Below are positions 35,762-60,096 of a DNA stretch of 64,000 nt, piece by piece. The translations under genes and the position numbers were made by a program. Positions within the stretch are counted from its first letter, which is position 1. The number at the start of each line of letters is the position of its first letter. A model generated the notes under the pieces. It did not search any database and was not told where the DNA came from. It worked only from the letters and a program-made list of their open reading frames with translations. The DNA is from an uncultured Acidobacteriota bacterium (GTDB lineage: Bacteria; Acidobacteriota; Vicinamibacteria; Fen-336), in the NCBI GenBank assembly GCA_963847655.1, contig CAWKAS010000002.1:705729-769728 (forward strand). The letters are read 5' to 3'.

Positions 35762-35776
35762 GGACCTCGTTGGCAG

Positions 35777-36205: not shown

Positions 36206-36211
36206 CCGGCC

Positions 36212-36315: not shown

Positions 36316-36382
36316 GGACCCCGCGGGGGGCTGCAACCAGACCATTTGATGGTCGTGACGAACCGCTCGAAAGGAGGGGCCT

Positions 36383-36778: not shown

Positions 36779-36808
36779 GGCCCATGGCACACGCCGGATG
36801 AGGCAGCC

Positions 36809-36912
36809 GCCGAACAAGGGGATGCACCAGTCGGGGCGCTGGGTTTGAAGATCCTCCACGATGAGCTTAGCTTCATCAATGTGCGCCCCGCAGGTGATCC
36901 CGACTGTTCGAC
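36809..36912 (+). repeat. attC site 6
   Basis: GCCGAAC…GTTCGAC; identical to attC9. Confidence 0.8.
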
Positions 36913-37079
36913 GGACACGAGGCGGGACGGGGCATGACCCAGGTCCACGTTCTCAGACTGGCCATCGTCGCTGCTGTCTTGGCCTCCTCTGCCATCGCAG
37001 CCGGTGCCCGCACGTGTGCAGTGTGGCCCTTTCGCACGTTTCAGGAACGGCTCGCTGGCCTTTCAACCGAGTCCTCGTC

Positions 37080-37484
37080 GTGCGGGTCCTGGAGCAGCAC
37101 TTCCTGCCCTTCTACGAGGGTCGTATCTGCTATCGGCTAGATGTGGAGCTCCTAGAGGACATCAATGGGATAGAGCTACGGCCGGTGGTGCGGATCGTGT
37201 CTGACGAGCCGTTCGCAGTGGTGGGGCTAGAGGGCGAGTATGATGCGTTTCCTGAGGGAACCGAATGGGCCCTGCTAGTGGGCAGGATCCCCGCCGCGGG
37301 CCTGCTCGAGCATTCAGGCGACTGGGGTGACGACGTCACGATGATCGACTACTACTACTCGCCTTGCCGCGGTGACTCAATCCAGTTGGTGACACCCGAA
37401 GACCACACGACAGGAGTGTTGGCCGCGGTGCGAGCCGAGTGGCGTGCCCGCATCGAGCGCGCCATGAAGCGTCATGCCGAGTAG
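37080..37484 (+). CDS. cassette 7: hypothetical protein, start uncertain (possible frameshift; a signal-peptide-like ORF at 36934..37140 lies in another frame)
   Basis: …VLEQHFLPFYEGRICYRLDVELLEDINGIEL… is protein-like only from ~37060. The upstream part of track ORF 36861 lies inside attC6. Confidence 0.3.
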   Translation: MRVLEQHFLPFYEGRICYRLDVELLEDINGIELRPVVRIVSDEPFAVVGLEGEYDAFPEGTEWALLVGRIPAAGLLEHSGDWGDDVTMIDYYYSPCRGDSIQLVTPEDHTTGVLAAVRAEWRARIERAMKRHAE

Positions 37485-37492
37485 CAGCAGCC

Positions 37493-37595
37493 GTCGAACG
37501 AAGCGATGCACCAGCCAGGGCGCTGAGTTGAAGACACTCCACGACGACCCCAGCTTCACCAATGTGCGCCCTGCAGGTGATCGCAGCTGTTGGAC
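37493..37595 (+). repeat. attC site 7
   Basis: GTCGAAC…GTTGGAC. Confidence 0.7.
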
Positions 37596-37609
37596 GGACT
37601 GAGGCAGGA

Positions 37610-37990
37610 GTGACACGAAGCACACTTTTCCTGGTCGCGGTCTTGACAATGGCTTGTGCCTCTTCGCCGCGCCAGCGGGCGGCCGCTGCAAACGCGGAGA
37701 CCCAGGGCGACGTCGGCGATCCAGGGGTCTATCCTGAGTCGGTCACGCCATGCTTGGCCGCGATGACGGCGGTCGACGTCCCTGTGGAAGTCAACCTGAT
37801 GACCGCGACTGAGCAGGGTGAGAGCTGCGCGATATCAATCTGGTTCGAGACCGAGACCGATCTTGAGGCGTTTGTTCAGCACCGTGTCGCAGCGGGGCTT
37901 TCAGCAAAGTCGGTTCCGTTCAGGGGAACCTCCGGCGAAACAACGTGGATCCCACTGGAACTACAGGTGGGCGGCACCGTGGAGCATTAG
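37610..37990 (+). CDS. cassette 8: hypothetical secreted/lipoprotein
   Basis: The GTG start follows a GGAGGCAGGAG RBS. The product begins VTRSTLFLVAVLTMACASS…. Confidence 0.4.
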   Translation: MTRSTLFLVAVLTMACASSPRQRAAAANAETQGDVGDPGVYPESVTPCLAAMTAVDVPVEVNLMTATEQGESCAISIWFETETDLEAFVQHRVAAGLSAKSVPFRGTSGETTWIPLELQVGGTVEH

Positions 37991-37996
37991 GGGGCC

Positions 37997-38099
37997 GTCC
38001 AACGATGGGATGCACCAGACGGGGCGCTGCGTTGAAGATGCTCCACGACGACCCTAGCTTCATCAATGTGCGCCCCGCAGGTGATCCCGGCTGTTCGGC
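37997..38099 (+). repeat. attC site 8
   Basis: GTCCAAC…GTTCGGC. Confidence 0.75.
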
Positions 38100-38166
38100 G
38101 GACCCCGCGGGGGGCTGCAACCAGACCATTTGATGGTCATGACGAACCGCTCGAAAGGAGGGGCCT

Positions 38167-38562
38167 ATGACCCGCTGGCTGGGTAGGTACTCAGACTTGA
38201 CGTACGCTGTCATGCGCGTGGTTGTTGGACTTCTCTTCGCATGCCACGGAGCGCAGAAGCTCTTCGGCGTTCTCGGAGGAGAGAGTCAACTGTCTAACCC
38301 CATGATGCTTGCCGCTGGGGCTATCGAGTTCACTGGCGGACTTCTGGTGGCGGTCGGACTGTGGGCCGGTTACGCAGCGTTCATCTCAAGTGGGCAGATG
38401 GCGGTCGCGTATTTCATGGTGCACGCTTCTGGCGGGTTCTGGCCTATCGTCAACAAGGGTGAGCTTGCCGTTCTCTACTGTTTCGTCTTTCTGTTCATCG
38501 CTTCCAGAGGGTCGGGTAGCTGGAGTGTCGACGGCATGGTGAGCAAGAAGAATCCCTCCTGA
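38167..38562 (+). CDS. cassette 9: DoxX-family membrane protein (exact duplicate of cassette 6)
   Basis: The 131-aa product is identical, and the whole cassette 38100-38696 matches 36316-36912. Confidence 0.6.
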   Translation: MTRWLGRYSDLTYAVMRVVVGLLFACHGAQKLFGVLGGESQLSNPMMLAAGAIEFTGGLLVAVGLWAGYAAFISSGQMAVAYFMVHASGGFWPIVNKGELAVLYCFVFLFIASRGSGSWSVDGMVSKKNPS

Positions 38563-38592
38563 GGCCCATGGCACACGCCGGATGAGGCAGCC

Positions 38593-38696
38593 GCCGAACA
38601 AGGGGATGCACCAGTCGGGGCGCTGGGTTTGAAGATCCTCCACGATGAGCTTAGCTTCATCAATGTGCGCCCCGCAGGTGATCCCGACTGTTCGAC
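38593..38696 (+). repeat. attC site 9
   Basis: GCCGAAC…GTTCGAC. Confidence 0.8.
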
Positions 38697-38736
38697 AGAC
38701 TGCGTCGTTGATCAACGACAGGCTGCGTAGAACCTC

Positions 38737-39192
38737 ATGGCGTCAGGAGACAGAAGCCGCACCTGGTTCCCCGAGATGATTGAGGAGCTTCGGGCATCCT
38801 GGGACTCCGGCATGTCCTGCGAGCAGATGATCGCGCTCCGTGATCGTCTCCAAGAGATGCTTGAAGGCATCCTCACATCCCGCAACGTTGTGCCGGCAAC
38901 CATGCGCTGCCCATGCTGCGGCACCGTGGGGCCAGGGGGCCCGCCGGTCGTGTCCGTCCGGGCGATGTTGCTGTCCTTGCGACGCTTCGAGATCGAGTCT
39001 CCGGAGGCCGTGCGGAGTCTCGAGAAGATGTGGGCGGACCATCGGAAGGCCCACGATCTAGACCTATACGGCAAGCCTGCCGTGTCTGCGGGAAAGGGTT
39101 CATCCCTGGCGTCAGGCCAGACGGTACGGGAAGTAGGTACGATGGGCCGGAGCGTGAACAAGGCGATGCACCAGCCGAAGCGCTGGGATTGA
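38737..39192 (+). CDS. cassette 10: hypothetical protein with a CPCCG motif
   Basis: 151 aa. The C-terminus is encoded by attC10. Confidence 0.4.
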   Translation: MASGDRSRTWFPEMIEELRASWDSGMSCEQMIALRDRLQEMLEGILTSRNVVPATMRCPCCGTVGPGGPPVVSVRAMLLSLRRFEIESPEAVRSLEKMWADHRKAHDLDLYGKPAVSAGKGSSLASGQTVREVGTMGRSVNKAMHQPKRWD

Positions 39193-39256
39193 AGATGCCC
39201 CACGATCCTCTGTTCTTCATCAATGTGCGCTTCGCAGGTTATCGCTGCTGTTGTGC
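39153..39256 (+). repeat. attC site 10
   Basis: CGTGAAC…GTTGTGC. Confidence 0.7.
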
Positions 39257-39311
39257 GGACTCATTGAAGGTGTTGCGTACTAGCCGTGTTCCTTCGGCCC
39301 GTAGGTGACCA

Positions 39312-39503
39312 GTGGGATTACTGCTACTGCCTCTCCTCATGCTTCAGGGTGGACCCCCTTCTCATTCGAACGACGAGCCTCCAGCGATCGCCGCAACCGT
39401 CCGACATGTAGCGGCCGAGCTCGCGCAGTCACTGTGCAAGAAGGAGGCATGCGATGTGTCGATTGCCGGCGGTGTCCCGCGGGCGACCTGCTACATCTCC
39501 TAG
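39312..39503 (+). CDS. cassette 11: candidate small secreted protein (weak; the cassette may be ORF-less)
   Basis: MGLLLLPLLMLQGG… (63 aa). Alternative ORFs exist on both strands, and none is convincing. Confidence 0.2.
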   Translation: MGLLLLPLLMLQGGPPSHSNDEPPAIAATVRHVAAELAQSLCKKEACDVSIAGGVPRATCYIS

Positions 39504-39762
39504 CCAAGATTCCAGGGGTGTCGCCACTTCCCGCAGCCGAGGCAGACCGTCAGCTGGGCGCCACGGTGATCGATGTCTTCGCTCGATAGAGTTCGACGCG
39601 CCGGACGAGGCTGAGGTTGGAGTCGACGTCCTCCGTAGATGGGGACATTCTCTTCAGCAAGTGTTGGTATCGAGTCGCACGCCGGGAGGGCGACTGGCGA
39701 GTCAATGACGGTGTTCCGCCCTGTGCGATCATGTGAATCGCACGTGGCCATCTGGGGACGCC

Positions 39763-39866
39763 GCACAACGAGGGGATGCACCAGACAAGGCGCTGGTTGT
39801 GAAGATGCTCTACGACGCCTCTTTCGTCATCAATGTGCGCCTTGCAGGTGATCCCGTCTGTTCTGC
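39763..39866 (+). repeat. attC site 11
   Basis: GCACAAC…GTTCTGC. Confidence 0.75.
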
Positions 39867-39913
39867 GGACCTTGTCGAAAAACCGCGCTAGAATCGTCAC
39901 GTAAGGAGCCCAT

Positions 39914-40120
39914 GTGCGGTTCAAGGTCGAGTTCGAGCAGGAAGAGGATGGCCGGTGGATCGCCGAAGTGCCTGATCTGCCTGGCGTTTTGGCCTATGGT
40001 GCGGACCGTGCGGAGGCCCAAGCCAAGGTTCAGGCCCTGGCCCTGCGGGTCGTGGCCGAGCGGCTTGAACATGGCGAGGCTGGCCCGGAGCTCTTGGACA
40101 TCTCCTTTCAAGCTGCGTGA
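39914..40120 (+). CDS. hicB: cassette 12: HicB-family antitoxin
   Basis: MRFKVEFEQEEDGRWIAEVPDLPGVLAYGADRAEA… The GTG start follows a TAAGGAG RBS. Confidence 0.7.
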   Translation: MRFKVEFEQEEDGRWIAEVPDLPGVLAYGADRAEAQAKVQALALRVVAERLEHGEAGPELLDISFQAA

Positions 40121-40329
40121 GCAACTGGCCCAGCACCCGGGCGCCGCAGGTTCTTGCCGCGCTTCAGCGTATCGGGTGGTCGATCAAGCGGCAGTCGGGG
40201 TCCCACAAGACTCTCGTTCGTGAGGGCTGGCCTTCCTACACTTGGCCGTTCCACGACCGCGAGGAGCTCGGCCCGAGAATGCTTGCGCGCGTGGCGAAGC
40301 GAACTGGGCTCACACCGGAGGATCTCTAG
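40117..40329 (+). CDS. hicA: cassette 12: HicA mRNA-interferase toxin
   Basis: …ALQRIGWSIKRQSGSHKTL… (YcfA/HicA). It overlaps the hicB stop. Confidence 0.7.
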   Translation: MSNWPSTRAPQVLAALQRIGWSIKRQSGSHKTLVREGWPSYTWPFHDREELGPRMLARVAKRTGLTPEDL

Positions 40330-40687
40330 CCGGTCGTGGGAGCCGCAGAACAAACAGCAGTTCTTAACAAACAGCAGTTCTTCCTGAGTCGCCGTCGGAG
40401 TAGAAGTCGACGCTGAGGCGGACGTGGGCGATTCTGGAAGAGCTGAGTTGAACCGAGGCCGCGCTGCTGGCCCTATGTACTTTGAATTGCGCCGGGGTGC
40501 GTGCGGGAACGCGGAAGTCCGGGCCTTGGCTGGGTAGTCCTGGCCCGGAGAATGGGGGCGAGACCCCGGACGGACCTGACTCGGCCGACGAGTCCACCGC
40601 GGTACGCGCCACGAGACAAGCCAGCCCCTGGAGCGGCGGCGCCACGTTCGGCACCGGGTCGGCGGGACGAAGGGAGGGAGCCCACCA

Positions 40688-41821
40688 TCACATCCTCAGG
40701 GGCGGCAGGACGTCGAGGACGACGAGCCGGCCGATCTGGCACCGGGGACACAGGAGCGGGTCCTTTCCGAAGAGACGGCGGAAGGTGGTGTCCCAGCTTT
40801 CCTTTGGGAGCTTGGGAATCTGTGGCCCTCCCAGCTGGCGTCGACAGTGCGCCAGGTCTTCTCTTCGGCGCGAGGCCAGCAGCCCGTAGTGTCGGATGCG
40901 GACGAAGCGGTCGGGCAGGACGTGCTGGAGGAAGAGGCGAGCGAACTTGTCTCCGCTTAGGGACTCGAGCTTGGTCTTGCCACCGTCCTGACGGTCCTTG
41001 TAGCGGAAGACCACCGTATGTCCGTCGTAGCGGATGATGCGGGAGTTCGAGATCGCGATGCGGTGGACGTAGCGGGAGAGGTACTCGACCACGTGGGAGG
41101 GCCCTTCGAGAGGCGGCTCGATGCGGATTCCCCACGTCTTGTGCCCGGCCCGGGCGATGAGGTCGCGGGCCTCGTCCTCGGGGAGGGGCAGCTCGTTGGC
41201 CTCGATGGCGTCTCTCAGCTTGGCGAGCAGCTTTCCCTTGAAGACGGGCTGGAGCTTGCCCAGAGGCAGGAAGAAGTGAGTGCCGGAGGAGATCCACCGC
41301 AGCGCGCGCCAGACGCCGGCGGGCACGAGGCAGTGGATGTGGGGATGGAAGCGCAGCTTCTGGGTCCAGGTGTGGAGCACGGCGGTGAAGCCGATGTCGC
41401 CCTGGAGGTGGCTCCTTCCCACCTCGAGCAGCGTCTCGGAGACGGCCTGGAAGAGGAGATTCAGGCACCGCTCGGGGGCGAGGCGGAACAGGCGGTGCAA
41501 CTCCCCGGGGATGGTGAAGACGATCTGGTAGTAGGGCACGGGGAGGGCCAGCGCGCGCTGGTGTTCGGCCCACAGGGCCTGCTGAAGGCCCTGGCATTTG
41601 GGGCAGTGGCGGTTGCGGCAGGAGTTGTAGGCCCGGCGGACGAGGCCGCAGGTGGAGCACACCTCCCGGTGCCCGCCGAGACGGACGGTGCGGCAGTTAA
41701 CGATCGCGCTGGCGGCGCGGGCCTGGGCCGAGCTCAGCCTGAGGCCGAAGGCGTGGTCGCGCAGGACGTCCGCGACCTCGGAGCCGTCGCAGGCCCGCGG
41801 GGGTGGGTGCGGATGACGCAC
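40688..41821 (-). CDS. tnpA: IS91-family transposase (rolling-circle, HUH Y2)
   Basis: A zinc-finger N-terminus (CSTCG…CRNRHCPKCQ), an HUH motif (HPHIHCLV) and a YLSRYVHRIAISNSRI Y2 motif are present. Confidence 0.85.
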   Translation of the reverse strand: MRHPHPPPRACDGSEVADVLRDHAFGLRLSSAQARAASAIVNCRTVRLGGHREVCSTCGLVRRAYNSCRNRHCPKCQGLQQALWAEHQRALALPVPYYQIVFTIPGELHRLFRLAPERCLNLLFQAVSETLLEVGRSHLQGDIGFTAVLHTWTQKLRFHPHIHCLVPAGVWRALRWISSGTHFFLPLGKLQPVFKGKLLAKLRDAIEANELPLPEDEARDLIARAGHKTWGIRIEPPLEGPSHVVEYLSRYVHRIAISNSRIIRYDGHTVVFRYKDRQDGGKTKLESLSGDKFARLFLQHVLPDRFVRIRHYGLLASRRREDLAHCRRQLGGPQIPKLPKESWDTTFRRLFGKDPLLCPRCQIGRLVVLDVLPPLRM

Positions 41822-41824
41822 CGT

Positions 41825-42673
41825 CTACTTGTTCGGGACGCGGTCGAGAGGGCTGGTGGTCTGGTGGATGTTGGTCTGGGCCACGTGGGTGTAGACCTGG
41901 GTGGAGGTCAAGGAGCGGTGGCCCAGGAGGGACTGGATCAGGCGGATGTTGGTGCCGTCCTCGAGGAGATGGGTCGCGAAGGCGTGGCGCAGGGAGTGGA
42001 AGTAGACGTGCTTCTGGATGCCGGCCTTCAGCGCCGCGTGCTTGAAGACCTTCTCGGCGGTGGACGAGGACAGCGCCGTGCCCCTGGGGCGTCCCTCGAA
42101 CAGCCACCGCACCGGGCGGTACTGCCGCCAGTACTCCCGCAGGGTCCCGAGCAGGACGGGTGAGAGCATCACGTAGCGGTCCTTGCGGCCCTTGCCCTGC
42201 TCGACCCGGATCATCATGCGCTTCGAGTCGATGTCGGCGGGGACAAGCCCCAGGGTCTCGCCGAGGCGCAGGCCCCCGCTGTAGCTGGTCATGAGGAGAG
42301 CGCGGTGCTTGAGGTTGGTGCAGGCGTCGAGGATGGCCGTCACCTCCTCGGGGGCGAGGATCTCGGGAAGGACCCGCCGCTTCTTCTGGTACGGCATCCG
42401 CTTGATGTCCCAGTCCCGGTGGAGGCACTCGCGGTAGAAGAAGCGGAGCGCGCAGGTGGTCTGGTTGAAGGTGGAGAAGCCCACCTTGCGTTCGTTCGTC
42501 AAGTGGCGCTGATAGCCCTGGATGTCCTCCGGCGTCACCTGGTCGAGAGGTTTGGCCACGAACCTCCCGAACAGGCGCAGCATCCAGACGTAGGTCTCCT
42601 GGGTCCGGGGGCTGCGGTCGCGGGCGGCGAGCGTCTCGGCGAAAAGCGTCTCGAAGGGGTTCTGGAACTCCAT
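41825..42673 (-). CDS. tyrosine recombinase (phage-integrase family) associated with IS91-family elements
   Basis: R…HSLRHAFATHLL…VYTHV catalytic residues are present. Confidence 0.8.
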   Translation of the reverse strand: MEFQNPFETLFAETLAARDRSPRTQETYVWMLRLFGRFVAKPLDQVTPEDIQGYQRHLTNERKVGFSTFNQTTCALRFFYRECLHRDWDIKRMPYQKKRRVLPEILAPEEVTAILDACTNLKHRALLMTSYSGGLRLGETLGLVPADIDSKRMMIRVEQGKGRKDRYVMLSPVLLGTLREYWRQYRPVRWLFEGRPRGTALSSSTAEKVFKHAALKAGIQKHVYFHSLRHAFATHLLEDGTNIRLIQSLLGHRSLTSTQVYTHVAQTNIHQTTSPLDRVPNK

Positions 42674-42777
42674 GTCTTCCTCCTTTGGGGGTTGTCGCGA
42701 GAGCGCGACCTGGAGGAAGCTATGGCAGTCTAATCAACCGCTCCAGGCGGACGTCGTTCCGCCGCGTAGCGGCTTCG

Positions 42778-42890
42778 GTTCAACAAGGCGATGCAGCAGA
42801 CGAAGCGCTGGAGTTGAAGATGCCCTACGACGCCTTGGCGTCATCAATGTGCGCTTTGCAGCTTATTGCCGCTGTTCGACAGAGGTAAGG
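42778..42890 (+). repeat. attC site 12 (belongs to the hicAB cassette; displaced by the IS)
   Basis: GTTCAAC…GTTCGAC. Confidence 0.75.
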
Positions 42891-42913
42891 TAGAAACCGA
42901 GGCAGGGCGGTCT

Positions 42914-43177
42914 ATGCCGCGGAAACGATGGCCGACTTGGTGGGACTGGGAGCTCGAACTGAGCCCCCACGTCCTCAAGCGCATGGTGGATCGGGGCTTC
43001 TCAGAGGTAGAGTTGCGTGCCATGCTTGAGGGAGCCTCGAAGTGGCGTCGCGACGTGGCCCCGGGTCGTTGGGTAATTGAGACCCGGCATAAGAAGCGGC
43101 CTTGGGAAGTCATTGTGGAGCCTGACGTTGAGATGGAGCTTCTGGTGGTAATCACGGCGTACCCTGTCGAGGCCTAG
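42914..43177 (+). CDS. cassette 13: DUF4258-like toxin-family protein
   Basis: MPRKRWPTWWDWELELSPHVLKRMVDRGFSEVELRAML…. Confidence 0.5.
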   Translation: MPRKRWPTWWDWELELSPHVLKRMVDRGFSEVELRAMLEGASKWRRDVAPGRWVIETRHKKRPWEVIVEPDVEMELLVVITAYPVEA

Positions 43178-43181
43178 CAGA

Positions 43182-43451
43182 ATGAGTGAGTCCTATCTCG
43201 AGGTCACCTACCGCCACGGCCGTCCCCTGGCCGCGTACTACTACCTGCCCCGGCGACCCAGGGATCGGAGCCACCGCACTCGCCGGTCCGCAGCGGGACT
43301 CTTGGTCGACTACACCCGTGGGGGGCGACCAATCGGGATCGAGATCACGGCGCCCACCAAGGTCTCCCTGGCCGCGCTCAACCGTCTTCTCAACGAGTTG
43401 GGGCTCCCTCGGGTCACTCGCACAGAGATTTCCCCGCTCTTTGCCGCGTGA
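43182..43451 (+). CDS. cassette 13: DUF2283-like (putative antitoxin partner)
   Basis: …LLVDYTRGGRPIGIEITAPTKV…. Confidence 0.5.
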   Translation: MSESYLEVTYRHGRPLAAYYYLPRRPRDRSHRTRRSAAGLLVDYTRGGRPIGIEITAPTKVSLAALNRLLNELGLPRVTRTEISPLFAA

Positions 43452-43463
43452 CTGGGGCGCCCT

Positions 43464-43567
43464 GTCGAACGAGGGCTTGCACCAGACAAAGCGCCGGAAT
43501 TGAAGATGGTCCGAGACGCCCCTGGCATCATTGATGTGCGCTTTGCAGGTGAAGCCTGCTGTTATGC
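43464..43567 (+). repeat. attC site 13
   Basis: GTCGAAC…GTTATGC. Confidence 0.75.
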
Positions 43568-43586
43568 GAACTGAAGGAGGCATCGC

Positions 43587-44105
43587 TTGAGATCGACTCT
43601 CTTTGCCAGCGCTCTCCTCTGCGTCTTGTGTGTGGCCAGCTCCGCCGGTGCTGACCCGACAGATGGCAGTAGCTCCGTCTTCGCCGGCTTCCCGGGCATC
43701 GGGAAAGTTGTCGTCACCTCCACGCACGATGGCCTCCCTTCGGAGCGTCTTCGCGGCCGAATCGTGCGCCGCCTGGCGAATCACGGCCTGCTGGCGGATC
43801 CGCAGTCAACGGGTCGCGAAGCACAGCTGGTTGTCAAGGTCCATGCTGAGACGCTGCCCCAGGACCGCAGTGCGTGTAGCTACCACGCCTACACGGTGTC
43901 GGTCGCTGTCCGGGAGAGCGTTGAACTGACTCGCGAGCCTCACACGCGTCTTCTTGCCGTCACCTGGTCCGACCGCCAGTCTGTATCGCGCTTTGGCGGA
44001 GACTTGGCTGCGCGCACGGTACTGGGCGTAGTCGACACGAGCCTGAATCAGCTCATCGTGGAGGTTGAGACGGCGTGGCAGAGCGCATCAACGCAGGCAG
44101 AGTGA
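43587..44105 (+). CDS. cassette 14: hypothetical secreted protein
   Basis: The TTG start follows a GAAGGAGG RBS. Signal peptide MRSTLFASALLCVLCVASSAGA. Confidence 0.45.
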   Translation: MRSTLFASALLCVLCVASSAGADPTDGSSSVFAGFPGIGKVVVTSTHDGLPSERLRGRIVRRLANHGLLADPQSTGREAQLVVKVHAETLPQDRSACSYHAYTVSVAVRESVELTREPHTRLLAVTWSDRQSVSRFGGDLAARTVLGVVDTSLNQLIVEVETAWQSASTQAE

Positions 44106-44129
44106 AGAAACGCTCGTCAATGAGGGTGT

Positions 44130-44233
44130 CGCATAACAAGCCGATGAACCAGTCGAAGCGCTGGGGTTGAAGGTGCGCCACGACGACCCTGGCTTCATCA
44201 ATGTGCGCCTCGCAGGTGAAGCCCACTGTTCGG
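44130..44233 (+). repeat. attC site 14
   Basis: GCATAAC…GTTCGGC. Confidence 0.75.
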
Positions 44234-44299
44234 CGGACACCTGAGGGATTCAGGCACCTTCCACTTGACGTGCGTATATACGGTGTCTAGACTTACATC

Positions 44300-44539
44300 A
44301 TGAAGCGAAAGAGGGCGAAGCTCTTCCAGAACGGGGGCAGTCAGGCCGTCCGCCTGCCAAAGGAATGCCGCTTCGTCGCCCAAGGGGAGGTGCTGGTTCA
44401 CCGGGAGGGGCGTCGAGTCATCCTGGAGCCTACAGATGAGTGGTCGGAGGAGTTCCGCGCCTGCCTGGGCTCTTGGTCGGGCGACATTCCTCGACCCAAG
44501 CAGCAGGAACTCGGAGACCTTCAGAATCCATTCGACTGA
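44300..44539 (+). CDS. vapB: cassette 15: AbrB/MazE-type antitoxin (VapB-like)
   Basis: MKRKRAKLFQNGGSQAVRLPKECRF…. Confidence 0.65.
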   Translation: MKRKRAKLFQNGGSQAVRLPKECRFVAQGEVLVHREGRRVILEPTDEWSEEFRACLGSWSGDIPRPKQQELGDLQNPFD

Positions 44540-44934
44540 TGCCCCGATTCATGCTTGACGCTGACACTGTCAGCTACGCCATCCGCGGCCAGGGGCAGGT
44601 CGGGAAGCGGTTGCTCGAACACCAACCATCGGAGCTCTGTATTAGCTCGATCACCTGGGCCGAGCTTCGTTTCGGAGCCGAGGCCAAGCGCTCCCCGAAA
44701 CTCCGGCGCGCGATTCAGGCCTTCGCCAAGGACGTCGCAGTTGTCCCCTTCGACCAGGTGGCGGCCGACAAGTTCGCGGCGGTGGCAGCGTCGCCAGCTC
44801 GGCGTGGAAAGCCGATTGGGTCCTTCGATACCCTCGTGGCGGCGCATGCGCTTTCACTGGGCATGACTGTAGTGACGAACAACACGAAGCACTTTGGGCG
44901 GGTGCCCAGCTTGAACGTGGAGAATTGGGCCTGA
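44538..44934 (+). CDS. vapC: cassette 15: PIN-domain toxin VapC
   Basis: MPRFMLDADTVSYAIRG…FDTLVAAHALSLGMTVVTNNTKHF. An ATGA overlap joins it to vapB. Confidence 0.7.
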
Positions 44935-44950
44935 GGCTGATGCAGCAGCC

Positions 44951-45053
44951 GCCGAACGAGGGGATGCACCAGACAGGGCGCTGAGTTGAAGATGCTCCAC
45001 GACGTCCTTAGCGTCATCTATGCGCGCCCTGCAGGTGATCCCACGTGTTCGGC
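44951..45053 (+). repeat. attC site 15
   Basis: GCCGAAC…GTTCGGC. Confidence 0.8.
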
Positions 45054-45090
45054 GGACCTCTGGTCGAAGAGCCGGGTGTAGAATCTGGGC

Positions 45091-45279
45091 ATGGCCACCG
45101 CCAAGGACACCGTCCGGGACCTCTTGGAGCAGATGCCCGACGACTGCTCCCTTGAGGACGTCCAGTACCAGCTCTACCTGCGCCAGAAGCTCGAAAGGAG
45201 CCGCTTGGCCGCAGCCGAGGGTCGAGTCGTTTCCCACGCCGAGGTCAAAGAGCGGCTGTCGAAGTGGGCCGGAAAGTAG
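45091..45279 (+). CDS. cassette 16: small antitoxin (ParD/RelB-like)
   Basis: 62 aa. It overlaps the start of the downstream toxin. Confidence 0.45.
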   Translation: MATAKDTVRDLLEQMPDDCSLEDVQYQLYLRQKLERSRLAAAEGRVVSHAEVKERLSKWAGK

Positions 45280-45605
45280 TCTGGACGGACCCAGCGGCAG
45301 AAGACGTCGTCGAGACGGTCGAGTTCATCGCGAAGGACTCGCCTTCCTTTGCAGCCACCTTGGCGCAGCGAATCTGCGACGCCGGAGACTCTCTGGAGGT
45401 GTTCAGCGAGCGGGGCCGGCCTTACCCTGATCCTGCATATCCTGGCTTTCGGGAGTTGCTGGTGGGCCCCTACCGCCTGGTGTACGAAGTGGAAGACGAA
45501 CGGGTCGTCATTCACGGGGTGTTCCATGGCAGTCGTCAGGTTGAACATGCCGTTCGGAAACGTGCCGCCCCGCGAGGTTCAAGGGGCCGCCGAACAAGGC
45601 GATGA
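45264..45605 (+). CDS. cassette 16: RelE/ParE-family toxin
   Basis: …ERGRPYPDPAYPGFRELLVGPYRLVYEVEDERVVIHGVFHGSR… (ParE-like). Confidence 0.6.
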   Translation: MGRKVVWTDPAAEDVVETVEFIAKDSPSFAATLAQRICDAGDSLEVFSERGRPYPDPAYPGFRELLVGPYRLVYEVEDERVVIHGVFHGSRQVEHAVRKRAAPRGSRGRRTRR

Positions 45606-45687
45606 ACCAGCCAAAGCGCGGAGGAAGATGTCCTAGATTGGTATGCTTCATTGAGTCGCGCTTTGGAGGTTATCGCCGCTGTTATGT
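45589..45687 (+). repeat. attC site 16 (divergent member)
   Basis: GCCGAAC…GTTATGT. Confidence 0.6.
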
Positions 45688-45713
45688 GGACCCTGGAGAG
45701 AGGGGTAGACTAG

Positions 45714-45953
<240 letters not shown>

Positions 45954-45961
45954 CCCCTGGC

Positions 45962-46324
45962 ATGAGGTTCAAGGTCGACGAGAACCTCCCCAATGAGGTG
46001 GCGGAGGCTCTCCGGGCGGCAGGTCATGACGCGCCCACGGTTCTGGACCAGGGGGCCGGGGGCATGCTGGATTCCGATCTCGCCGCGCTGGTGAAGCGGG
46101 AGCAACGTGCCCTGCTGACCTTCGACCAGGGCTTCGGTGACATCCGCTCCCATCCGCCGGGGGAATACTCTGGCCTCGTGGTGCTTCGCCTCAAGCGGCA
46201 AGACAAGGTCCATCTGCTTTCGGTGATGCCGAAGCTCATCGCGACCCTCGCCTCAGAGCCGCTCGAGGGTCGGGTCTGGATCGTCGAGGAATCACGCATA
46301 CGGATTCGGGGTGAGGAACGGTAG
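45962..46324 (+). CDS. cassette 17: DUF5615/PIN-like (Mut7-C-type) putative toxin
   Basis: MRFKVDENLPNEVAEALRAAGHDA… is the partner of DUF433. Confidence 0.5.
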   Translation: MRFKVDENLPNEVAEALRAAGHDAPTVLDQGAGGMLDSDLAALVKREQRALLTFDQGFGDIRSHPPGEYSGLVVLRLKRQDKVHLLSVMPKLIATLASEPLEGRVWIVEESRIRIRGEER

Positions 46325-46686
46325 CGGGGATCCGCGAGCCACATAACAAACAGCAGTTCTTCCTAACAAACAGAAGTTCTTCCTGAGTCGCCCTCCGAGT
46401 AGGCGCTGCCGCTGAGCGGGCGTGTGGCGATTCTGGAAGAGCTGAGTTGAACCGAGGCCGCGGTGCTGAACCTATGTACTCTGGATCGGGCCGTGTTGCG
46501 TGTGGGAACAGCGGGGTCGGGAGCCGAACGACGTGTGTGGGACGCGAGGAAGCTCGCCAGGGGGCAAAGCGCGGTGATGTCTGAGACCGACTTCACGGCG
46601 CGAGAGGACCGAGAACGAACCTCCCCCTGAGGCGGCGACGCCGTTTCGGGCATCGAAAGGCCGGGGCGGAGAGGGGCGAGTCGCCG

Positions 46687-47820
46687 TCACAGCCTCAGGG
46701 GCGGCAACACCTCGCGGGCGACGAAGCGTCCGACCTGGCAGCGGGGACACAGGAGGGGGTCACTGCCGAGGAGCCGTCGGAAGGCGACGTCCCAGGCCTC
46801 TTTGGGGACCTTGGGCGGTGTTCGTCCACCGAGCTGCTCGCGACAGCGTTCGAGATCGGACCTGCGACGGGAAGCGAGGAGGCCGCAGTGCCAAATGCGG
46901 ACGAAGCGGGGGGGCAGGACATGCTGGAGGAAGAGGCGGGCGAACTTGTCACCGCTGAGGGGAGCGAGCTTGGTCTTTTCGCCGTCCTGGCGGTCCTTGT
47001 AGCGGAAGACGACGGTCTGCCCGTCGTAGTGGACGATGCGGTAGTTGGAGATGGCGATGCGATGGACGTAGCGGGAGAGGTAGTCGATCACGTGTGAGGG
47101 GCCCTCGAGGGGCGGCTCGATACGGATGCCCCACGTCTTGCGTCCGGCCCGTGCGAGGAGGTCCCGGGAGTCGCGCTCGGGAAGAGGCAGCTCGTCGGCG
47201 TCGACGGCGGCCCTGAGCTTGGCGAGGAGCTTGCCCTTGAAGACGGGCTGGAGCTCCTTCAGGGGGAGGAAGAAGCGGCTGCCGGTGGCGACCCACCGGA
47301 GGGCCTTCCAGACCCCGGCGGGGACGAGGCAGTGGATGTGGGGGTGGAAGCGGAGCTTCTGGGTCCAGGTGTGCAAGACGGCGGTGAAGCCGATATCGCC
47401 TTTGAGGTGGCTGCGTCCCAGCTCCAGGAGGGTCTCCGAGACGGCCTGAAACAGCAGGTTCAGGCACCGCTCGGGGGCGAGCCGAAACAGCCGATGCAGC
47501 TCCCCGGGGATGGTGAAGACGATCTGGTAGTAGGGCACGGGGAGGGCCAGGGTCCTCTGGCGCTCGGCCCACAGGGCCTGTTGGAGCCCCTGGCACTTGG
47601 GGCAGTGGCGGTTGCGGCAGGAGTTGTAGGCCCGGCGGACGAGGCCGCAGACGGAGCACACCTCACGGTGCCCGCCGAGGCGGGCGGTGCGGCAGCGGAC
47701 GAGGGCGCTGGCGGCCCGGGCCTGGGCTCGCCTCAGCCTGAGGCCGGAGGCGTGGTCGCGCAGAATGTCCGCCACTTCGGGGCCGTCCCGGTCCCGAGGT
47801 GGCGGGTGCGGGTGACGCAC
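46687..47820 (-). CDS. tnpA: IS91-family transposase, copy 2
   Basis: The 377-aa product is colinear with 40688..41821. Confidence 0.85.
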   Translation of the reverse strand: MRHPHPPPRDRDGPEVADILRDHASGLRLRRAQARAASALVRCRTARLGGHREVCSVCGLVRRAYNSCRNRHCPKCQGLQQALWAERQRTLALPVPYYQIVFTIPGELHRLFRLAPERCLNLLFQAVSETLLELGRSHLKGDIGFTAVLHTWTQKLRFHPHIHCLVPAGVWKALRWVATGSRFFLPLKELQPVFKGKLLAKLRAAVDADELPLPERDSRDLLARAGRKTWGIRIEPPLEGPSHVIDYLSRYVHRIAISNYRIVHYDGQTVVFRYKDRQDGEKTKLAPLSGDKFARLFLQHVLPPRFVRIWHCGLLASRRRSDLERCREQLGGRTPPKVPKEAWDVAFRRLLGSDPLLCPRCQVGRFVAREVLPPLRL

Positions 47821-47823
47821 CGC

Positions 47824-48250
47824 CTACTGGCTCTTCGGGGCACGGTCGAGGGGGCTCGTGGTCTGGTGGATGTTGGTCTGGGCCACGTGGGTGTAGACCT
47901 GGGTGGAGGTCAAGGACCGTTGGCCCAGCAGCGCCTGGATCAGGCGGATGTTGGTGCCGTCCTCGAGGAGGTGGGTGGCGAAGGCGTGGCGCAGGGAGTG
48001 GAAGTAGACGTGCTTCTGGATGCCGGCCTTGAGCGCGGCGTGCTTGAAGACCTTCTCGGCGGTGGATGAAGACAGCGCCGTGCCCCTGGGGCGTCCCTCG
48101 AACAGCCACCGCACGGGGCGGTACTGCCTCCAGTACTCCCGCAGGGTCTCGAGCAGGACGGGTGAGAGCATCACGTAGCGGTCCTTGCGGCCCTTGCCCT
48201 GCTCGACCCGGATCATCATCCGCTTGGAGTCGATGTCGCTGGGCACGAGA
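47824..48250 (-). pseudogene. tyrosine recombinase, N-terminally truncated copy
   Basis: It matches the C-terminal ~140 aa of 41825..42673 (…DIDSKRMMIRVEQGKGRKDRYVML…). The upstream region is unrelated. Confidence 0.6.
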
Positions 48251-48552
48251 CCCAGGGGCAACAGCAAGGGGCGGGGCGTCATCCGACGTGAGTCCAAGGC
48301 ACAGGCGAGGCGCGGTTCGGTGTTTCGGGTTTGGCCGCGCGGCGGCGGGCGGCCCTGTTCCCCCTGTGGTTTGTGGGGATCGCTTCCGTCGCGAACGGTG
48401 TCGCGCACCCTTCGTCTTCGCTCCTCACGGCAGGCTGCCTCCCCGGACTTGTCACGTCTCCCGTCATTGGCGTCCTCGGAATCCTGCTCTTGCGGCGTCT
48501 GCCCTGGTCACGGATGGCGTAGACTCGTCTCCGGGAGCTTCCTGACCGTCGC

Positions 48553-56970: not shown

Positions 56971-57318
56971 CTACCCCAGCACCTTCTCGTAGGACTCCTC
57001 GTCGAAGCCGACGAGGATCCTCTTCCCCACCCGGAGCGTGGGCGCGCGGAGGTTGCCGCTGGGCCCGATCATGAGCCGGGCCACGGTGGCCTTGTCCGGC
57101 TTTCCCTTCCGGAGGTCGATCCGCTCGACCTTCTTGCCCCTGGCCGCGATGAGCTCGTTCATGCCCTCGAGGAGGGCGAGAGCCTGCCGGGGACCCAGCT
57201 TCTCCTTCCGGGCATCGACCAGCTCCTTCGTCTCGATGTGCTTGCGCGCAAGAAACTCCTGCGCCTTTCCGCAGGTCTTTCAACCCACGCGGTTGTAGCG
57301 CCAGTCGACCTTCGGCAT
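56971..57318 (-). CDS. ArsC/Spx-family thioredoxin-fold protein with an in-frame TGA at 57280-57282: candidate selenoprotein (UxxC)
   Basis: MPKVDWRYNRVG-[TGA]-KTCGKAQEFLARKHIETKELVDARKEKLGPRQALALLEGMNELIAARGKKVERIDLRKGKPDKATVARLMIGPSGNLRAPTLRVGKRILVGFDEESYEKVLG. The TGA aligns with the first Cys of the Spx/ArsC CxxC motif. A GAGGAG RBS is present. The track lists only the C-terminal ORF 56971..57162. Confidence 0.5.
57244..57279 (-). promoter_or_regulatory. candidate bacterial SECIS hairpin(s) immediately 3' of the in-frame UGA
   Basis: mRNA: UGA-AAGA-CCUGCG-GAAAGG-CGCAGG, and overlapping it GCGCA-GGAGUUUCU-UGCGC. Confidence 0.3.
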
Positions 57319-57394
57319 CTCGTGTCTCCTCGCTCGAGGCGGCGGCTCCCTCGCGGGCTCCGCGCTCGGCCCCATGGTAACGCCGGCGGCTCCC

Positions 57395-58615
57395 TCAGTG
57401 GACCTTCTTGACCTTCTTGTTCAGGTAGTCCATGAGCACGTACTGGCCAAGGCTCCAGGGGCTGGTGAAGTAGGCCTTGCCCCGGCACATCTCCGTGACC
57501 TTCCGGACGAAGGCCACGAGGTCGCGGTCGCGGGCCAGCATGAAGGTGTTGACCAGGATCCCCTGCCGGCGGCAGCTCGCGACCTCCTTCAGGGTCAGGG
57601 CGACCACCCGGGGGTCGAGCCCGAAGGGGTTGCGGTAGATGCTGCCGTCCCGCTCGGTGAGGGCCGAGGGCTTCCCGTCGGTGATCATGACGATCTGCTT
57701 CATGTCCTTGCGCTGGCGGGCGAGGATCCGCTGGGCCAGGCGCAGGCCCTCCCGGGTGTTGGTGTAGTAGGGCCCCACCCGGACCCGCGCGATCTGGGAG
57801 ATGGGGACTTCTTCCGCGGAGTCGTGGAAGAGGACCAGGTGCAGGCTGTCGCCGGGGTACTGGGTGCGCAGGAGGTGCGAGAGGGCCAGGGCCACCTTCT
57901 TGGCCGGGGTGAAGCGGTCCTCGCCGTAGAGGATCATGCTGTGCGAGCAGTCGAGCATGACCACGGTGGCGCAGGAGGACTGGTACTCGGACTGGCGGAC
58001 CAGGAGGTCGTCGTAGTCCACGTTCAGCGGGACGCGGAGGCCCTCCCGGGCCACGGCGTTCAGGAGGGTGCCGCTGACGTCGAGGTTCATGGTGTCGCCG
58101 AACTCCCACGGCTTGGAGGGCCCGGAGGCCTCGACCCCGGTGGCCAGGTCGCGGGTGTCGTGGCGGCCGAAGGAGGCCTTGCCCACCGAGCCGAGAAGGT
58201 CCCTCAGCGCCCGGTAGCCGAGGAAGTCGACCGCCTTCTCCGTGAGCTCGAACTGTACCGGCGGCCCCTGCCCCCCCCGCTCCCCGCCCCCGGTCGGGTC
58301 GTGGAAGGGCTCCGCCTCGGAGGTCTTCAGGTAGCCCTCGCGCACCAGCCGCTCCACCGTCTTCTGGAGGAACTGATCGAGGGAGTCCTGGTCGGACAGG
58401 AGCTTCTGGAGGTCCTCGTCGGAGAGGAGCCCCCGTCGCATGAGGGCCTCGAGGATGGCGTCGTGGAGCGCCTGCAGCGAGTCCTCGTCCCACTCCCCCG
58501 TCTCCTGGCCGAAGCCGCTCTGGAGGAGGAAGTCCGAGAGCTCGGAGACGAGTTCCTCGAGGTTCAGGTCCTCCCAGAGCTCGCCGATGTAGCGGTGGTA
58601 GCGGGTGACGGCCAC
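57395..58615 (-). CDS. VWA-domain protein (partner of the upstream AAA+ ATPase)
   Basis: The C-terminal VWA region ([10 protein letters not shown]…MITDGKPSA) is present. A GTG start at 58615 follows the AAA gene stop. The track ORF is artificially extended upstream. Confidence 0.6.
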
Positions 58616-58626
58616 TTCGGGACCTC

Positions 58627-60096
58627 TCAGTTCACCTGCCGCTTCAGCCTGCGCAGCCGCTCGAGCCGCTCGAGGTCCAGCTCGATCTCGTCGCGGCGCT
58701 CGGCGGCCACGAAGCCACGGTCCTCGCTGCGGCCCACCTTTTTCTGGGCCCAGAGCCCCTCGAGCACGAACTCCCCGGCGGCGGCGAGAAGCGGCGCCGG
58801 GTCCTCGGGCTTCGCCCCGAGGAGGTGGACGTGCTCGAGCACCTCCGGGACCTGGTGGAGCTGGCCGAGCACCTCGGCGGCCGGGGAGTCCTCGCGGATC
58901 CGCAGGGTGCCGCCAGCCTCGAAGAACTGGACCACCGGGGCGAAATCCACCGCCCCCATGTAGACGGAGAAGACCTCCCCCACCGCCTGCCGGATCAGCT
59001 CCCGGGCCACGTTCTCGGCCCCGAGGAGCTCCCCCTCGTACTCGAGCTCGAACTTGCCGGTCAGCGAGGGCAGCGCCGCGTAGATGTCGGAGATGCGGGG
59101 CACCGCCGGGGACTCCCCGGCGAGGAGGGACCGGCGCTCGGCGTTGCTGACCGCGTTCTCGAGGGCGCTGATGGGGAGCCGCTGGGAGACCCCGCTGCGG
59201 CCGTCGATCTTCTTGTCGCGCCGAGCGGCGAAGGCGATCCCCTCGACGACCTCGCGGACGTAGCGGGGAAGGTGGAGCGCGCTCTCCCGGTCGGTCCACG
59301 CCTCCTGCTGGGTGATCGCCACCCCGTGCTCGAGGGTGGTCGGGTAGTGGGTGCGGACTTCGCTGCCGATGCGGTCCTTGAGGGGGGTGATGATCTTGCC
59401 CCGGGCGGTGTAGTCCTCGGGGTTGGCGGTGAAGACCATGCAGACGTCGACGGGCAGCCTCACGGGGTAGCCCTTGATCTGCACGTCGCCCTCCTGGAGG
59501 ATGTTGAACAGCCCCACCTGGATCCTCCCGGCGAGGTCCGGGAGCTCGTTCAGCGCGAAGATCCCCCGGTGCGCGCGGGGCAGGAGCCCGTAGTGCATGG
59601 TGAGCTCGCTCCCGAGATCGAAGCCGCCCCGGGCCGCGCGGATGGGGTCCACGTCGCCGATGATGTCGGCGATGGTGACGTCGGGGGTGGCGAGCTTCTC
59701 CACGTACCGCTGGTCGGGCCCGAGCCAGACGAGCGGGGTGTCGTCGCCCTCGGCCGTGAGGCGGTCACGGCAGCTCCGGCAGAGCGGGGCGAAGGGGTCG
59801 TCGCCGATCTCACAGCCCGCCACCGCCGGGATCTCGGGGTCCAGGAGCTCGGTCAGGGCGCGCAGGAGACGGCTCTTGGCCTGGCCCCGCAGTCCCAGCA
59901 GGATCATGTTGTGCCGGGAGAGGACGGCGTTGGTGACCTGGGGGATGACCGAGTCCTCGTAGCCGAGTATCCCGGGAAACAGTGGCTCCCGGGCAGAGAG
60001 CTTGCGCAGCAGGTTGCGGCGCATCTCCTCCTTCACCGGCAATCCCGGTCCGGAGACAGTCCTCCTGAGCTCACCGACGGTACGGGGTCGCGACAT
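58627..60096 (-). CDS. AAA+ ATPase, MoxR/ChlI (Mg-chelatase-like) family
   Basis: Walker A motif LLGLRGQAKS and a Walker B/arginine-finger region are present. The product is 489 aa. Confidence 0.75.
   Translation of the reverse strand: MSRPRTVGELRRTVSGPGLPVKEEMRRNLLRKLSAREPLFPGILGYEDSVIPQVTNAVLSRHNMILLGLRGQAKSRLLRALTELLDPEIPAVAGCEIGDDPFAPLCRSCRDRLTAEGDDTPLVWLGPDQRYVEKLATPDVTIADIIGDVDPIRAARGGFDLGSELTMHYGLLPRAHRGIFALNELPDLAGRIQVGLFNILQEGDVQIKGYPVRLPVDVCMVFTANPEDYTARGKIITPLKDRIGSEVRTHYPTTLEHGVAITQQEAWTDRESALHLPRYVREVVEGIAFAARRDKKIDGRSGVSQRLPISALENAVSNAERRSLLAGESPAVPRISDIYAALPSLTGKFELEYEGELLGAENVARELIRQAVGEVFSVYMGAVDFAPVVQFFEAGGTLRIREDSPAAEVLGQLHQVPEVLEHVHLLGAKPEDPAPLLAAAGEFVLEGLWAQKKVGRSEDRGFVAAERRDEIELDLERLERLRRLKRQVN

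What the first reader, a model, noticed from the sequence alone, without database searches (positions are those of the whole stretch)
56971..57318. In-frame TGA at the catalytic CxxC position of an ArsC/Spx-family gene: candidate selenoprotein
Read through the TGA at 57280-57282, the minus-strand ORF gives a 115-aa ArsC/Spx/YffB-like protein. The stop falls where the first Cys of the N-terminal CxxC redox motif is expected (…RVG-U-KTCGKAQEF…, compare Spx …SPSCTSCRKA…). No frameshift is needed. A good RBS precedes the ATG. The ORF track sees only the C-terminal 63 aa. Two overlapping GC hairpins lie 5-34 nt downstream of the UGA, at the position of a bacterial SECIS. This contrasts with the two homopolymer frameshifts elsewhere, since here the frame is preserved.
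Basis: partly seen in the sequence, partly recalled or inferred. Interest (0 to 1): 0.7.

Follow-up and report, generated by a model that had tools for sequence, protein, structure and literature searches.

The report
Known ArsC-like selenoprotein gene, mis-called
The in-frame TGA is almost certainly a genuine selenocysteine codon in a small thioredoxin-fold redox protein, but this protein family is already catalogued as a selenoprotein, so the finding is correct and ordinary.

Summary
A 115-codon minus-strand frame (57318..56971) has one in-frame TGA at codon 13 (57282..57280), and an AGGAG sits 7 nt before the ATG. With U read as C, the protein matches NCBIfam NF041106 "ArsC family (seleno)protein" over its full length (139 bits, cutoff 85). 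Selenoproteome reviews list this family as "arsenate reductase-like protein, UxxC".

In 80 species-level relatives the same column is TGA in 71, Cys in 8 and disrupted in 1, and the peptide upstream of the TGA is conserved.

A hairpin 19-37 nt from the U of UGA (window 57264..57246, GUU loop) is conserved across the Sec forms, with compensatory changes. In this window it is built from two codons that are rare in this genome (TTT 3%, CTT 2%). Synonymous resampling gives P = 9e-5 for the full hairpin. Distant Cys forms lack it.

TGA is otherwise the commonest stop codon here, so the genetic code is standard.

Not shown: selA/selB/selC/selD in this genome. None lie in the window, and the rest of the genome could not be reached. 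The protein's substrate is also unknown.

The gene belongs to an already known family, and public gene calls cut it to a 63-aa fragment.

The parts
56971..57318 (-). Complete ArsC-family (seleno)protein gene: 115 codons plus a TAG stop, with Sec at codon 13.
   Evidence: Translation. NF041106 139.4 bits against a cutoff of 85, profile positions 1-107/107. Pfam ArsC PF03960 33.4 bits against a cutoff of 24. Third-position-dominated substitutions against L001/L002/L081 both before and after the TGA.
57326..57330 (-). Shine-Dalgarno-like AGGAG, 7 nt upstream of the ATG (57318-57316).
   Evidence: Read directly from the sequence.
57280..57282 (-). In-frame UGA, the inferred selenocysteine codon (U13) and first residue of the UxxC motif.
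   Evidence: Cys occupies this column in full-length homologs. TGA sits in this column in 71 of 80 related species.
57271..57273 (-). UGC codon for Cys16, the resolving Cys of UxxC.
   Evidence: It aligns with Spx Cys13. In the model of the 65%-identical homolog P0001, the CxxC sits at the beta1/alpha1 junction.
57246..57264 (-). Conserved SECIS-like hairpin GCGCAGGA-GUU-UCUUGCGC (nt 19-37 counting the U of UGA as 1). Its apical loop G27-U28 lies at 57256-57255.
   Evidence: 84% of cells are paired across 72 Sec forms, against 28-63% when the partner is slid. There are compensatory AU/GC changes at pair 26:30 and changes at 21:35. G27 and U28 are invariant. The hairpin is built from the rare codons TTT and CTT. 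P(8 of 8 pairs) = 9e-5 under synonymous resampling. It is absent from distant Cys forms.
57252..57281 (-). Alternative hairpin 1 (core CCUGCG/CGCAGG, 57275-57258), mutually exclusive with the SECIS hairpin. Probably incidental to the conserved Cys and Gln codons.
   Evidence: It is the MFE structure in this window, at -15.1 kcal/mol against -12.1 for hairpin 2. It shows no covariation beyond the shuffles.
57395..60096 (-). Two co-oriented upstream genes: a chelatase-like AAA ATPase (58627-60096) and a vWA-domain protein (57395 to about 58600). They form a lineage-specific gene string with the ArsC-like gene.
   Evidence: VWA_2 hit. Weak chelatase-subunit hits, far below cutoffs. Synteny is found only in L001, L002 and L081. 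In L001 the vWA stop overlaps the ArsC-like start as TGATG.

Best explanation
This is an intact gene for a 115-aa selenoprotein of the ArsC/Spx/YffB superfamily, subfamily NCBIfam NF041106. The UGA at codon 13 is recoded as selenocysteine. As the ribosome approaches the UGA, an mRNA hairpin inside the coding sequence (nt 19-37 from the U, GUU loop) would recruit SelB·GTP·Sec-tRNA(Sec), which then out-competes release factor 2. This step is inferred by analogy with E. coli fdhF. The product has a thioredoxin-like fold with a U13-x-x-C16 centre at the start of helix alpha1. It most likely cycles between a selenol/thiol state and a selenenylsulfide state, acting as a small oxidoreductase or redox sensor. 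Its substrate is unknown, and nothing here shows arsenate reductase activity.

Shown here: family membership, the Sec/Cys column, conservation of the UGA across species, conservation and covariation of the hairpin, codon tuning, and a standard genetic code.

Inferred: actual Sec insertion, SelB binding, and the redox chemistry.
For: NF041106 139.4 bits against a cutoff of 85, full length. Pfam ArsC. Cys at the TGA column in full-length homologs; truncated public gene calls that start just after that column. 71 TGA, 8 Cys and 1 disrupted among 80 species-level loci, spanning Acidobacteriota, Planctomycetota, Methylomirabilota/Rokubacteria, Binatia, Melainabacteria and others. The upstream peptide DW.YHR.G is conserved, and substitutions are third-position-dominated on both sides of the TGA. 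Hairpin 2: 65 of 72 Sec forms make at least 6 of 8 pairs. Covariation at 26:30 (AU 46, GC 15) and at 21:35. G27 and U28 are invariant even though G27 is a synonymous site. Rare TTT and CTT codons; P = 9e-5. Distant Cys forms lack the hairpin, while the closest Cys form keeps a remnant, as described for Sec-to-Cys conversions in PMC1794560. TGA terminates 19 of 32 Pfam-confirmed genes in the window. The model of the 65%-identical homolog has pLDDT 89.6 with the CxxC at the beta1/alpha1 junction. The U aligns with Spx Cys10. The family is listed as a selenoprotein family in PMC13188914 (NF041106, UxxC), PMC9312934, PMC2398784 and PMC1794560.
Against: No selA, selB, selD or tRNA-Sec lies in the 64-kb window, and the rest of the source genome could not be examined. 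No Rfam family matches the hairpin. In this window a competing hairpin is about 3 kcal/mol more stable than the SECIS-like one. The local fold z-score is only -1.6. Much of the hairpin overlaps conserved amino-acid codons, so part of its conservation comes from coding constraint. There is no experimental evidence of Se incorporation for any member of the family.
Confidence: 0.9

Rival explanations
1. Pseudogene or sequencing/assembly error: a Cys codon (TGC or TGT) mutated or was mis-read to TGA, so the gene is dead, or is really a Cys form.
For: A single base separates TGA from TGC/TGT. The source is apparently a metagenome-assembled genome; the closest relatives are MAGs. A 65%-identical relative, L081, carries TGC at this codon.
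Against: The same TGA occurs in 71 of 80 other species, including the two closest relatives at 79% and 70% identity. The hairpin is intact and kept by rare codons. Coding-type substitution patterns persist on both sides of the TGA.
Confidence: 0.03
2. The UGA is read through, but not as selenocysteine. For example, Cys or another residue could be inserted by a tRNA-Sec-like suppressor: selC* tRNA-Cys, or the allo-tRNAs reported from Acidobacteria.
For: PMC5389517 reports tRNA-Sec-like tRNAs that insert Cys, Ser or Ala at stop codons, with allo-tRNAs frequent in Acidobacteria. Sec machinery was not demonstrated for this genome.
Against: No such tRNA, and no tRNA at all, lies in the window. The family-wide pattern of UGA plus a SECIS-like hairpin with a conserved loop G, together with Cys-form homologs, is the standard selenoprotein signature. 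TGA is the commonest normal stop here, so general suppression would be costly.
Confidence: 0.04
3. The real gene is only the annotated 63-aa C-terminal ORF (56971..57162), or another short restart product, and the upstream frame is non-functional.
For: Public gene calls give exactly this 63-aa product (P0073, 100% identical). The ORF lister does the same.
Against: A 63-aa fragment would lack strand beta1, the redox motif and helix alpha1 of the fold. Codons 1-52 evolve as coding sequence. The NF041106 profile is matched from position 1. The RBS precedes the upstream ATG, not Met53.
Confidence: 0.01

Closest known systems
NCBIfam NF041106 'ArsC family (seleno)protein', the 'arsenate reductase-like protein, UxxC' of prokaryotic selenoproteome surveys (PMC13188914, PMC9312934). 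It probably corresponds to GOS 'Arsenate reductase 2, cd03032, UxxC' (PMC2398784).
   Same: Full-length profile match above the cutoff. The same UxxC motif, with Sec first. The same size of about 115 aa. The same in-frame UGA followed by a hairpin inside the coding sequence.
   Different: Nothing substantive. This copy comes from an acidobacterial-type, 69% G+C genome, and public gene calls cut it to a 63-aa fragment. In this lineage it follows a chelatase-like AAA ATPase gene and a vWA gene.
Spx / MgsR (TIGR01617; PDB 1Z3E, 6GHB), the CxxC redox-switch regulators that bind the C-terminal domain of the RNA polymerase alpha subunit
   Same: The nearest solved fold and sequence. U13 and C16 align with Spx Cys10 and Cys13. 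The conserved LR.P motif is present.
   Different: Scores are far below the Spx cutoffs: 34.8 against 75 and 22.8 against 123. TM is only about 0.55. The protein has no C-terminal extension beyond residue 115. Its central subdomain is predicted to contain a beta hairpin. It has Sec in place of Cys.
Grx-coupled arsenate reductase ArsC (R773 type, TIGR00014) and the GOS 'ArsC 1, UxxS' selenoproteins
   Same: The Pfam PF03960 domain, a thioredoxin-like fold, and a nucleophile at the beta1/alpha1 junction.
   Different: The motif is UxxC rather than C/UxxS. No hit to the arsenate reductase equivalog appears at E <= 1. There is no ars operon context.
E. coli fdhF-type bacterial SECIS
   Same: A stem-loop inside the coding sequence shortly after the UGA, with a conserved G(U) in the apical loop.
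   Different: The sequence is specific to this protein family. Here the conserved stem begins 15-16 nt after the UGA. From my own knowledge, the minimal fdhF element sits 11 nt after it. No SelB binding has been tested.

Membership tests
NCBIfam NF041106 ArsC family (seleno)protein | The whole-protein HMM score reaches the curated cutoff, with full-length profile coverage. | tested here: met
   139.4 bits against a cutoff of 85; profile positions 1-107 of 107.
NCBIfam NF041106 ArsC family (seleno)protein | Sec or Cys at the first position of an N-terminal U/CxxC motif. | tested here: met
   U13-K-T-C16. Homologs have C or U in the same column.
Bacterial selenoprotein gene (SelB/SECIS-dependent UGA recoding) | The in-frame UGA aligns with Cys in homologs and is conserved in orthologs of other species. 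| tested here: met
   71 TGA, 8 Cys and 1 disrupted among 80 species-level loci.
Bacterial selenoprotein gene (SelB/SECIS-dependent UGA recoding) | [quoted passage not shown] | tested here: met
   Hairpin at nt 19-37, with G27 and U28 invariant. 84% of cells are paired. Compensatory changes at 26:30 and 21:35. Codon tuning P = 9e-5. No Rfam model matched it.
Bacterial selenoprotein gene (SelB/SECIS-dependent UGA recoding) | The genome encodes selA, selB, selD and tRNA-Sec (selC). | not testable with these tools
   None were found in the 64-kb window.
Bacterial selenoprotein gene (SelB/SECIS-dependent UGA recoding) | Selenium is actually incorporated at the UGA position. | not testable with these tools
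   This needs 75Se labelling or mass spectrometry.
Bacterial selenoprotein gene (SelB/SECIS-dependent UGA recoding) | UGA is otherwise a stop codon in this genome, i.e. the code is not reassigned. | tested here: met
   TGA ends 19 of 32 Pfam-confirmed genes in the window.
Arsenate reductase ArsC (Grx-coupled, TIGR00014) | A match to the arsenate reductase equivalog model, and ars operon context. | tested here: not met
   Only the generic Pfam ArsC domain hits, at 33 bits. No arsenate reductase equivalog appears among the NCBIfam hits at E <= 1. No ars genes are nearby, and no neighbour is conserved across phyla.
Spx/MgsR regulators (TIGR01617, NF002459) | The HMM score reaches the curated cutoff. 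| tested here: not met
   34.8 bits against a cutoff of 75.05, and 22.8 against 123. Fold TM is about 0.55.
YffB-type 'ArsC family reductase' (NF008107) | The HMM score reaches the curated cutoff. | tested here: not met
   22.1 bits against a cutoff of 121.

The most novel reading that the evidence does not exclude
The two mutually exclusive hairpins could form a switch that tunes how often the UGA is read as Sec rather than as a stop. Hairpin 1 starts at the UGA and is about 3 kcal/mol more stable in this window; hairpin 2 is the conserved SECIS-like element. Alternatively, in this acidobacterial lineage the UGA might be decoded by a tRNA-Sec-like suppressor that inserts Cys instead of Sec. 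Neither reading is excluded, because the genome's Sec machinery and the protein product were not observed.
Probability: 0.05. Interest if true: 0.5.

Novelty: already known. Interest (0 to 1): 0.2.

Why it matters
The main value is for annotation. Public gene calls cut this gene to a 63-aa fragment, and most of its close relatives are likewise called as 63-102 aa pieces that start after the UGA. The redox-active N-terminus is therefore missing from the protein databases.

Correct calling adds one selenoprotein to an acidobacterial-type genome and implies that the organism uses selenium. The family is widespread, with 578 hits among species-representative genomes, mostly Sec forms among the best 80. 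It has no known substrate, so it is a reasonable target for biochemistry. Its existence as a selenoprotein family is not new.

Tried and rejected
- **Rfam.** Gathering threshold on the whole window and a permissive scan of 57150-57400 found no SECIS family; the only hit was a chance CRISPR-DR match at E = 3.8.
- **Hairpin 1 as the SECIS.** It is the MFE structure in this window. I rejected it because it shows no covariation beyond the shuffles, and its pairing comes from conserved Cys and Gln codons.
- **Locating the source contig.** Two exact-protein look-ups (P0073 and the 489-aa neighbour) returned nothing on record. The cluster look-up gave no accession or name.
- **sel genes in the window.** I scanned 40 ORFs against Pfam and ran ARAGORN. 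There is no selA, selB, selD or tRNA-Sec. This says little about a multi-megabase genome.
- **Other in-frame TGA genes in the window.** No convincing candidate.
- **Conserved neighbours across phyla.** There are none. The large clusters were Arg/Gly/Pro-rich alternative-frame artefacts of high-G+C DNA. The AAA/vWA synteny holds only in the closest relatives.
- **Reassigned genetic code.** Rejected, because TGA is the commonest stop.
- **'Cys forms lack the hairpin' as an absolute rule.** This was qualified: the closest Cys form, L081, retains 7 of 8 pairs.

Full report
**1. What is in the sequence**

On the minus strand an ATG at 57318-57316 opens a frame that runs to a TAG at 56973-56971. The only interruption is a TGA at 57282-57280, which is codon 13. 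Read-through gives a 115-aa protein, MPKVDWRYNRVG-U-KTCGKAQEFLARKHIE...EKVLG. An AGGAG at 57330-57326 lies 7 nt before the ATG. The window is 69% G+C.

**2. Family**

With U written as C, the protein hits Pfam ArsC (PF03960) at 33.4 bits against a cutoff of 24. It also matches NCBIfam NF041106 "ArsC family (seleno)protein" at 139.4 bits against a cutoff of 85, covering profile positions 1-107 of 107. Models for Spx, for YffB-type reductases and for glutaredoxins score far below their cutoffs.

The nearest solved sequences are Spx proteins, at E about 3e-3. U13 and C16 align with the Spx redox pair Cys10 and Cys13.

An AlphaFold model of the closest full-length Cys homolog (P0001, 65% identical) is confident, with pLDDT 89.6. 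It places the CxxC at the junction of strand beta1 and helix alpha1. Foldseek puts Spx, YffB and ArsC-related proteins first, but only at TM about 0.55. The protein is therefore a divergent branch of that superfamily and not an ortholog of any characterised member.

**3. Is the UGA a Sec codon?**

*Homolog proteins.* The protein search returned 240 relatives.
- The full-length ones (114-118 aa) carry Cys at exactly the TGA column, for example ...HRPGCEPCG... and ...HRKNCNTCQ....
- Most close relatives are called as 63, 69, 75, 82, 88 or 102 aa pieces. The 102-aa calls begin one codon after that column. Gene callers produce this pattern when they restart after an in-frame stop.

*Related loci.* A scan of one genome per species found 578 relatives. 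Among the best 80 loci the column is TGA in 71, TGT/TGC in 8 and disrupted in 1. The Sec forms span Acidobacteriota, Planctomycetota, Methylomirabilota/Rokubacteria, Binatia, Zixibacteria, Ignavibacteria and Melainabacteria. The peptide upstream of the TGA (DW.YHR.G) is conserved in all of them.

*Closest relatives.* I compared the window with L001 (79% aa identity), L002 (70%) and L081. Substitutions are dominated by third positions and synonymous changes in codons 1-12 and 14-52, just as in codons 53-115. The frame is therefore under coding selection straight through the TGA.

*Genetic code.* TGA terminates 19 of 32 Pfam-confirmed genes in the window. The code is standard and the recoding is site-specific.

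**4. The SECIS**

*Hairpin 1* (nt 2-31 from the U, core CCUGCG/CGCAGG) is the MFE structure in this window. Across 72 Sec forms it shows no covariation beyond the shuffles. Its pairing comes from the invariant Cys and Gln codons.

*Hairpin 2* is GCGCAGGA-GUU-UCUUGCGC, at nt 19-37 (window 57264-57246). Four lines of evidence mark it as the conserved element:
- 65 of 72 Sec forms make at least 6 of its 8 pairs.
- 84% of cells are paired, against 28-63% when the partner column is slid.
- Pair 26:30 switches between A-U (46 sequences) and G-C (15). Pair 21:35 shows G-C, C-G, U-G and U-A. No shuffle out of 500 reached the observed covariation score. The tool itself warns that related sequences can inflate this measure.
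- Loop positions G27 and U28 are invariant, even though G27 is a synonymous third position.

*Within this genome.* The 3' arm is encoded by TTT-CTT. These codons make up 3.0% of Phe codons and 2.1% of Leu codons in the window's genes. I resampled synonymous codons for this peptide using the genome's own usage. All 8 pairs formed in 18 of 200,000 trials, P = 9e-5.

*Cys forms.* Distant Cys forms keep the Q-x-F-L residues but form only 2-5 of the 8 pairs. The closest Cys form, L081 (TGC), keeps 7 of 8 pairs with the same TTT-CTT codons. That looks like a remnant SECIS after a recent Sec-to-Cys switch, a pattern described in PMC1794560.

*Other points.* No Rfam family matches the hairpin. This is unsurprising for a family-specific element embedded in coding sequence. 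In this window hairpin 1 is about 3 kcal/mol more stable than hairpin 2. By inference, a ribosome with the UGA in its A site would have unwound hairpin 1, leaving hairpin 2 free at the mRNA entrance.

**5. What was not shown**

The window contains no tRNA. None of the 40 ORFs scanned is selA, selB or selD.

A low-probability alternative is decoding by a tRNA-Sec-like suppressor. Such tRNAs have been reported, some from Acidobacteria (PMC5389517).

**6. Function and context**

The UxxC centre on a thioredoxin-like fold points to selenenylsulfide/selenol-thiol redox chemistry. This is inference. Nothing supports arsenate reduction: no arsenate reductase equivalog hit and no ars genes nearby.

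In this lineage the gene follows a chelatase-like AAA ATPase gene and a vWA-domain gene on the same strand. The arrangement is shared with L001, L002 and L081. In L001 the vWA stop overlaps the ArsC-like start as TGATG. No neighbour is conserved across phyla, so the linkage is lineage-specific.

**7. Comparison with what is known**

ArsC-like selenoproteins have been reported repeatedly:
- in Deltaproteobacteria in 2006 (PMC1794560);
- as "Arsenate reductase 1 (UxxS)" and "Arsenate reductase 2 (cd03032, UxxC)" in the GOS metagenome in 2008 (PMC2398784);
- as "Arsenate reductase-like protein, COG1393, UxxC" in a 2022 review (PMC9312934);

NCBI already names relatives "ArsC family (seleno)protein" (P0064). 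This gene is a straightforward member of that family.

**8. Verdict**

The novelty rating is "already known". Interest is low (0.2). What remains of value is correcting the annotation and the fact that the family's function is still uncharacterised.

Noticed in passing
window 31958-48507: A chromosomal integron. An integron integrase (31958-33043, + strand; TIGR02249 417.5 bits against a cutoff of 265) is followed by about 15 attC-like imperfect-palindrome repeats of 110-140 nt at 500-700 bp spacing (33688-45624). This DNA is 60-63% G+C, against 69% for the window. The integrase points towards the array. The array is interrupted by two paralogous modules of an IS91/Y2-type transposase plus a tyrosine recombinase (40688-42733 and 46687-48507), 6.0 kb apart.
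   Followed up: partly
L081:577-927 (ENA contig k141_1429194): The closest Cys-form homolog (TGC at the Sec column, 65% identical) still has 7 of 8 pairs of the SECIS-like hairpin, with the same TTT-CTT codons. It appears to be a remnant SECIS after a recent Sec-to-Cys conversion.
   Followed up: partly
protein hits (e.g. P0073, P0023, P0015, P0002, P0010): Most public gene calls for this family are N-terminally truncated (63-102 aa) because gene callers restart after the UGA. JGI names them 'arsenate reductase-like glutaredoxin family protein'. The misannotation is systematic.
   Followed up: partly
L001:2999-3003 and window 57319-57394: In the closest relative, L001, the stop of the upstream vWA gene overlaps the ArsC-like start codon (TGATG), which suggests translational coupling. 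The window has a 76-nt spacer there instead. The gene order AAA ATPase, vWA, ArsC-like is shared by L001, L002 and L081 only.
   Followed up: partly
L055:about 2900-3342 (Pirellulaceae MAG, CAVOSP010000003.1): The N-terminal part of the ArsC-like gene is out of frame or disrupted upstream of ...AQEFLATH.... This could be a frameshift, a pseudogene or an assembly error.
   Followed up: no
window 18660 (+ strand): A TGA separates an M24-peptidase ORF (17163-18662) from an in-frame ORF with a double zinc ribbon (18663-19313). They are most likely two adjacent genes that happen to share a frame. I did not examine this for read-through.
   Followed up: no
L015, L028, L043, L078 (record titles): Several MAG records that carry this gene have implausible organism labels (Klebsiella pneumoniae, Enterobacteriaceae, Alcaligenaceae, Nitrosotalea). 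Their sequences resemble those of the Binatia and Methylomirabilota loci. The bins are probably mislabelled.
   Followed up: no
window 57252-57281 versus 57246-57264 (minus strand): In this window the non-conserved hairpin 1 (-15.1 kcal/mol) is more stable than the conserved SECIS-like hairpin 2 (-12.1 kcal/mol), and the two cannot form together. Whether this competition matters for recoding efficiency is unknown.
   Followed up: partly
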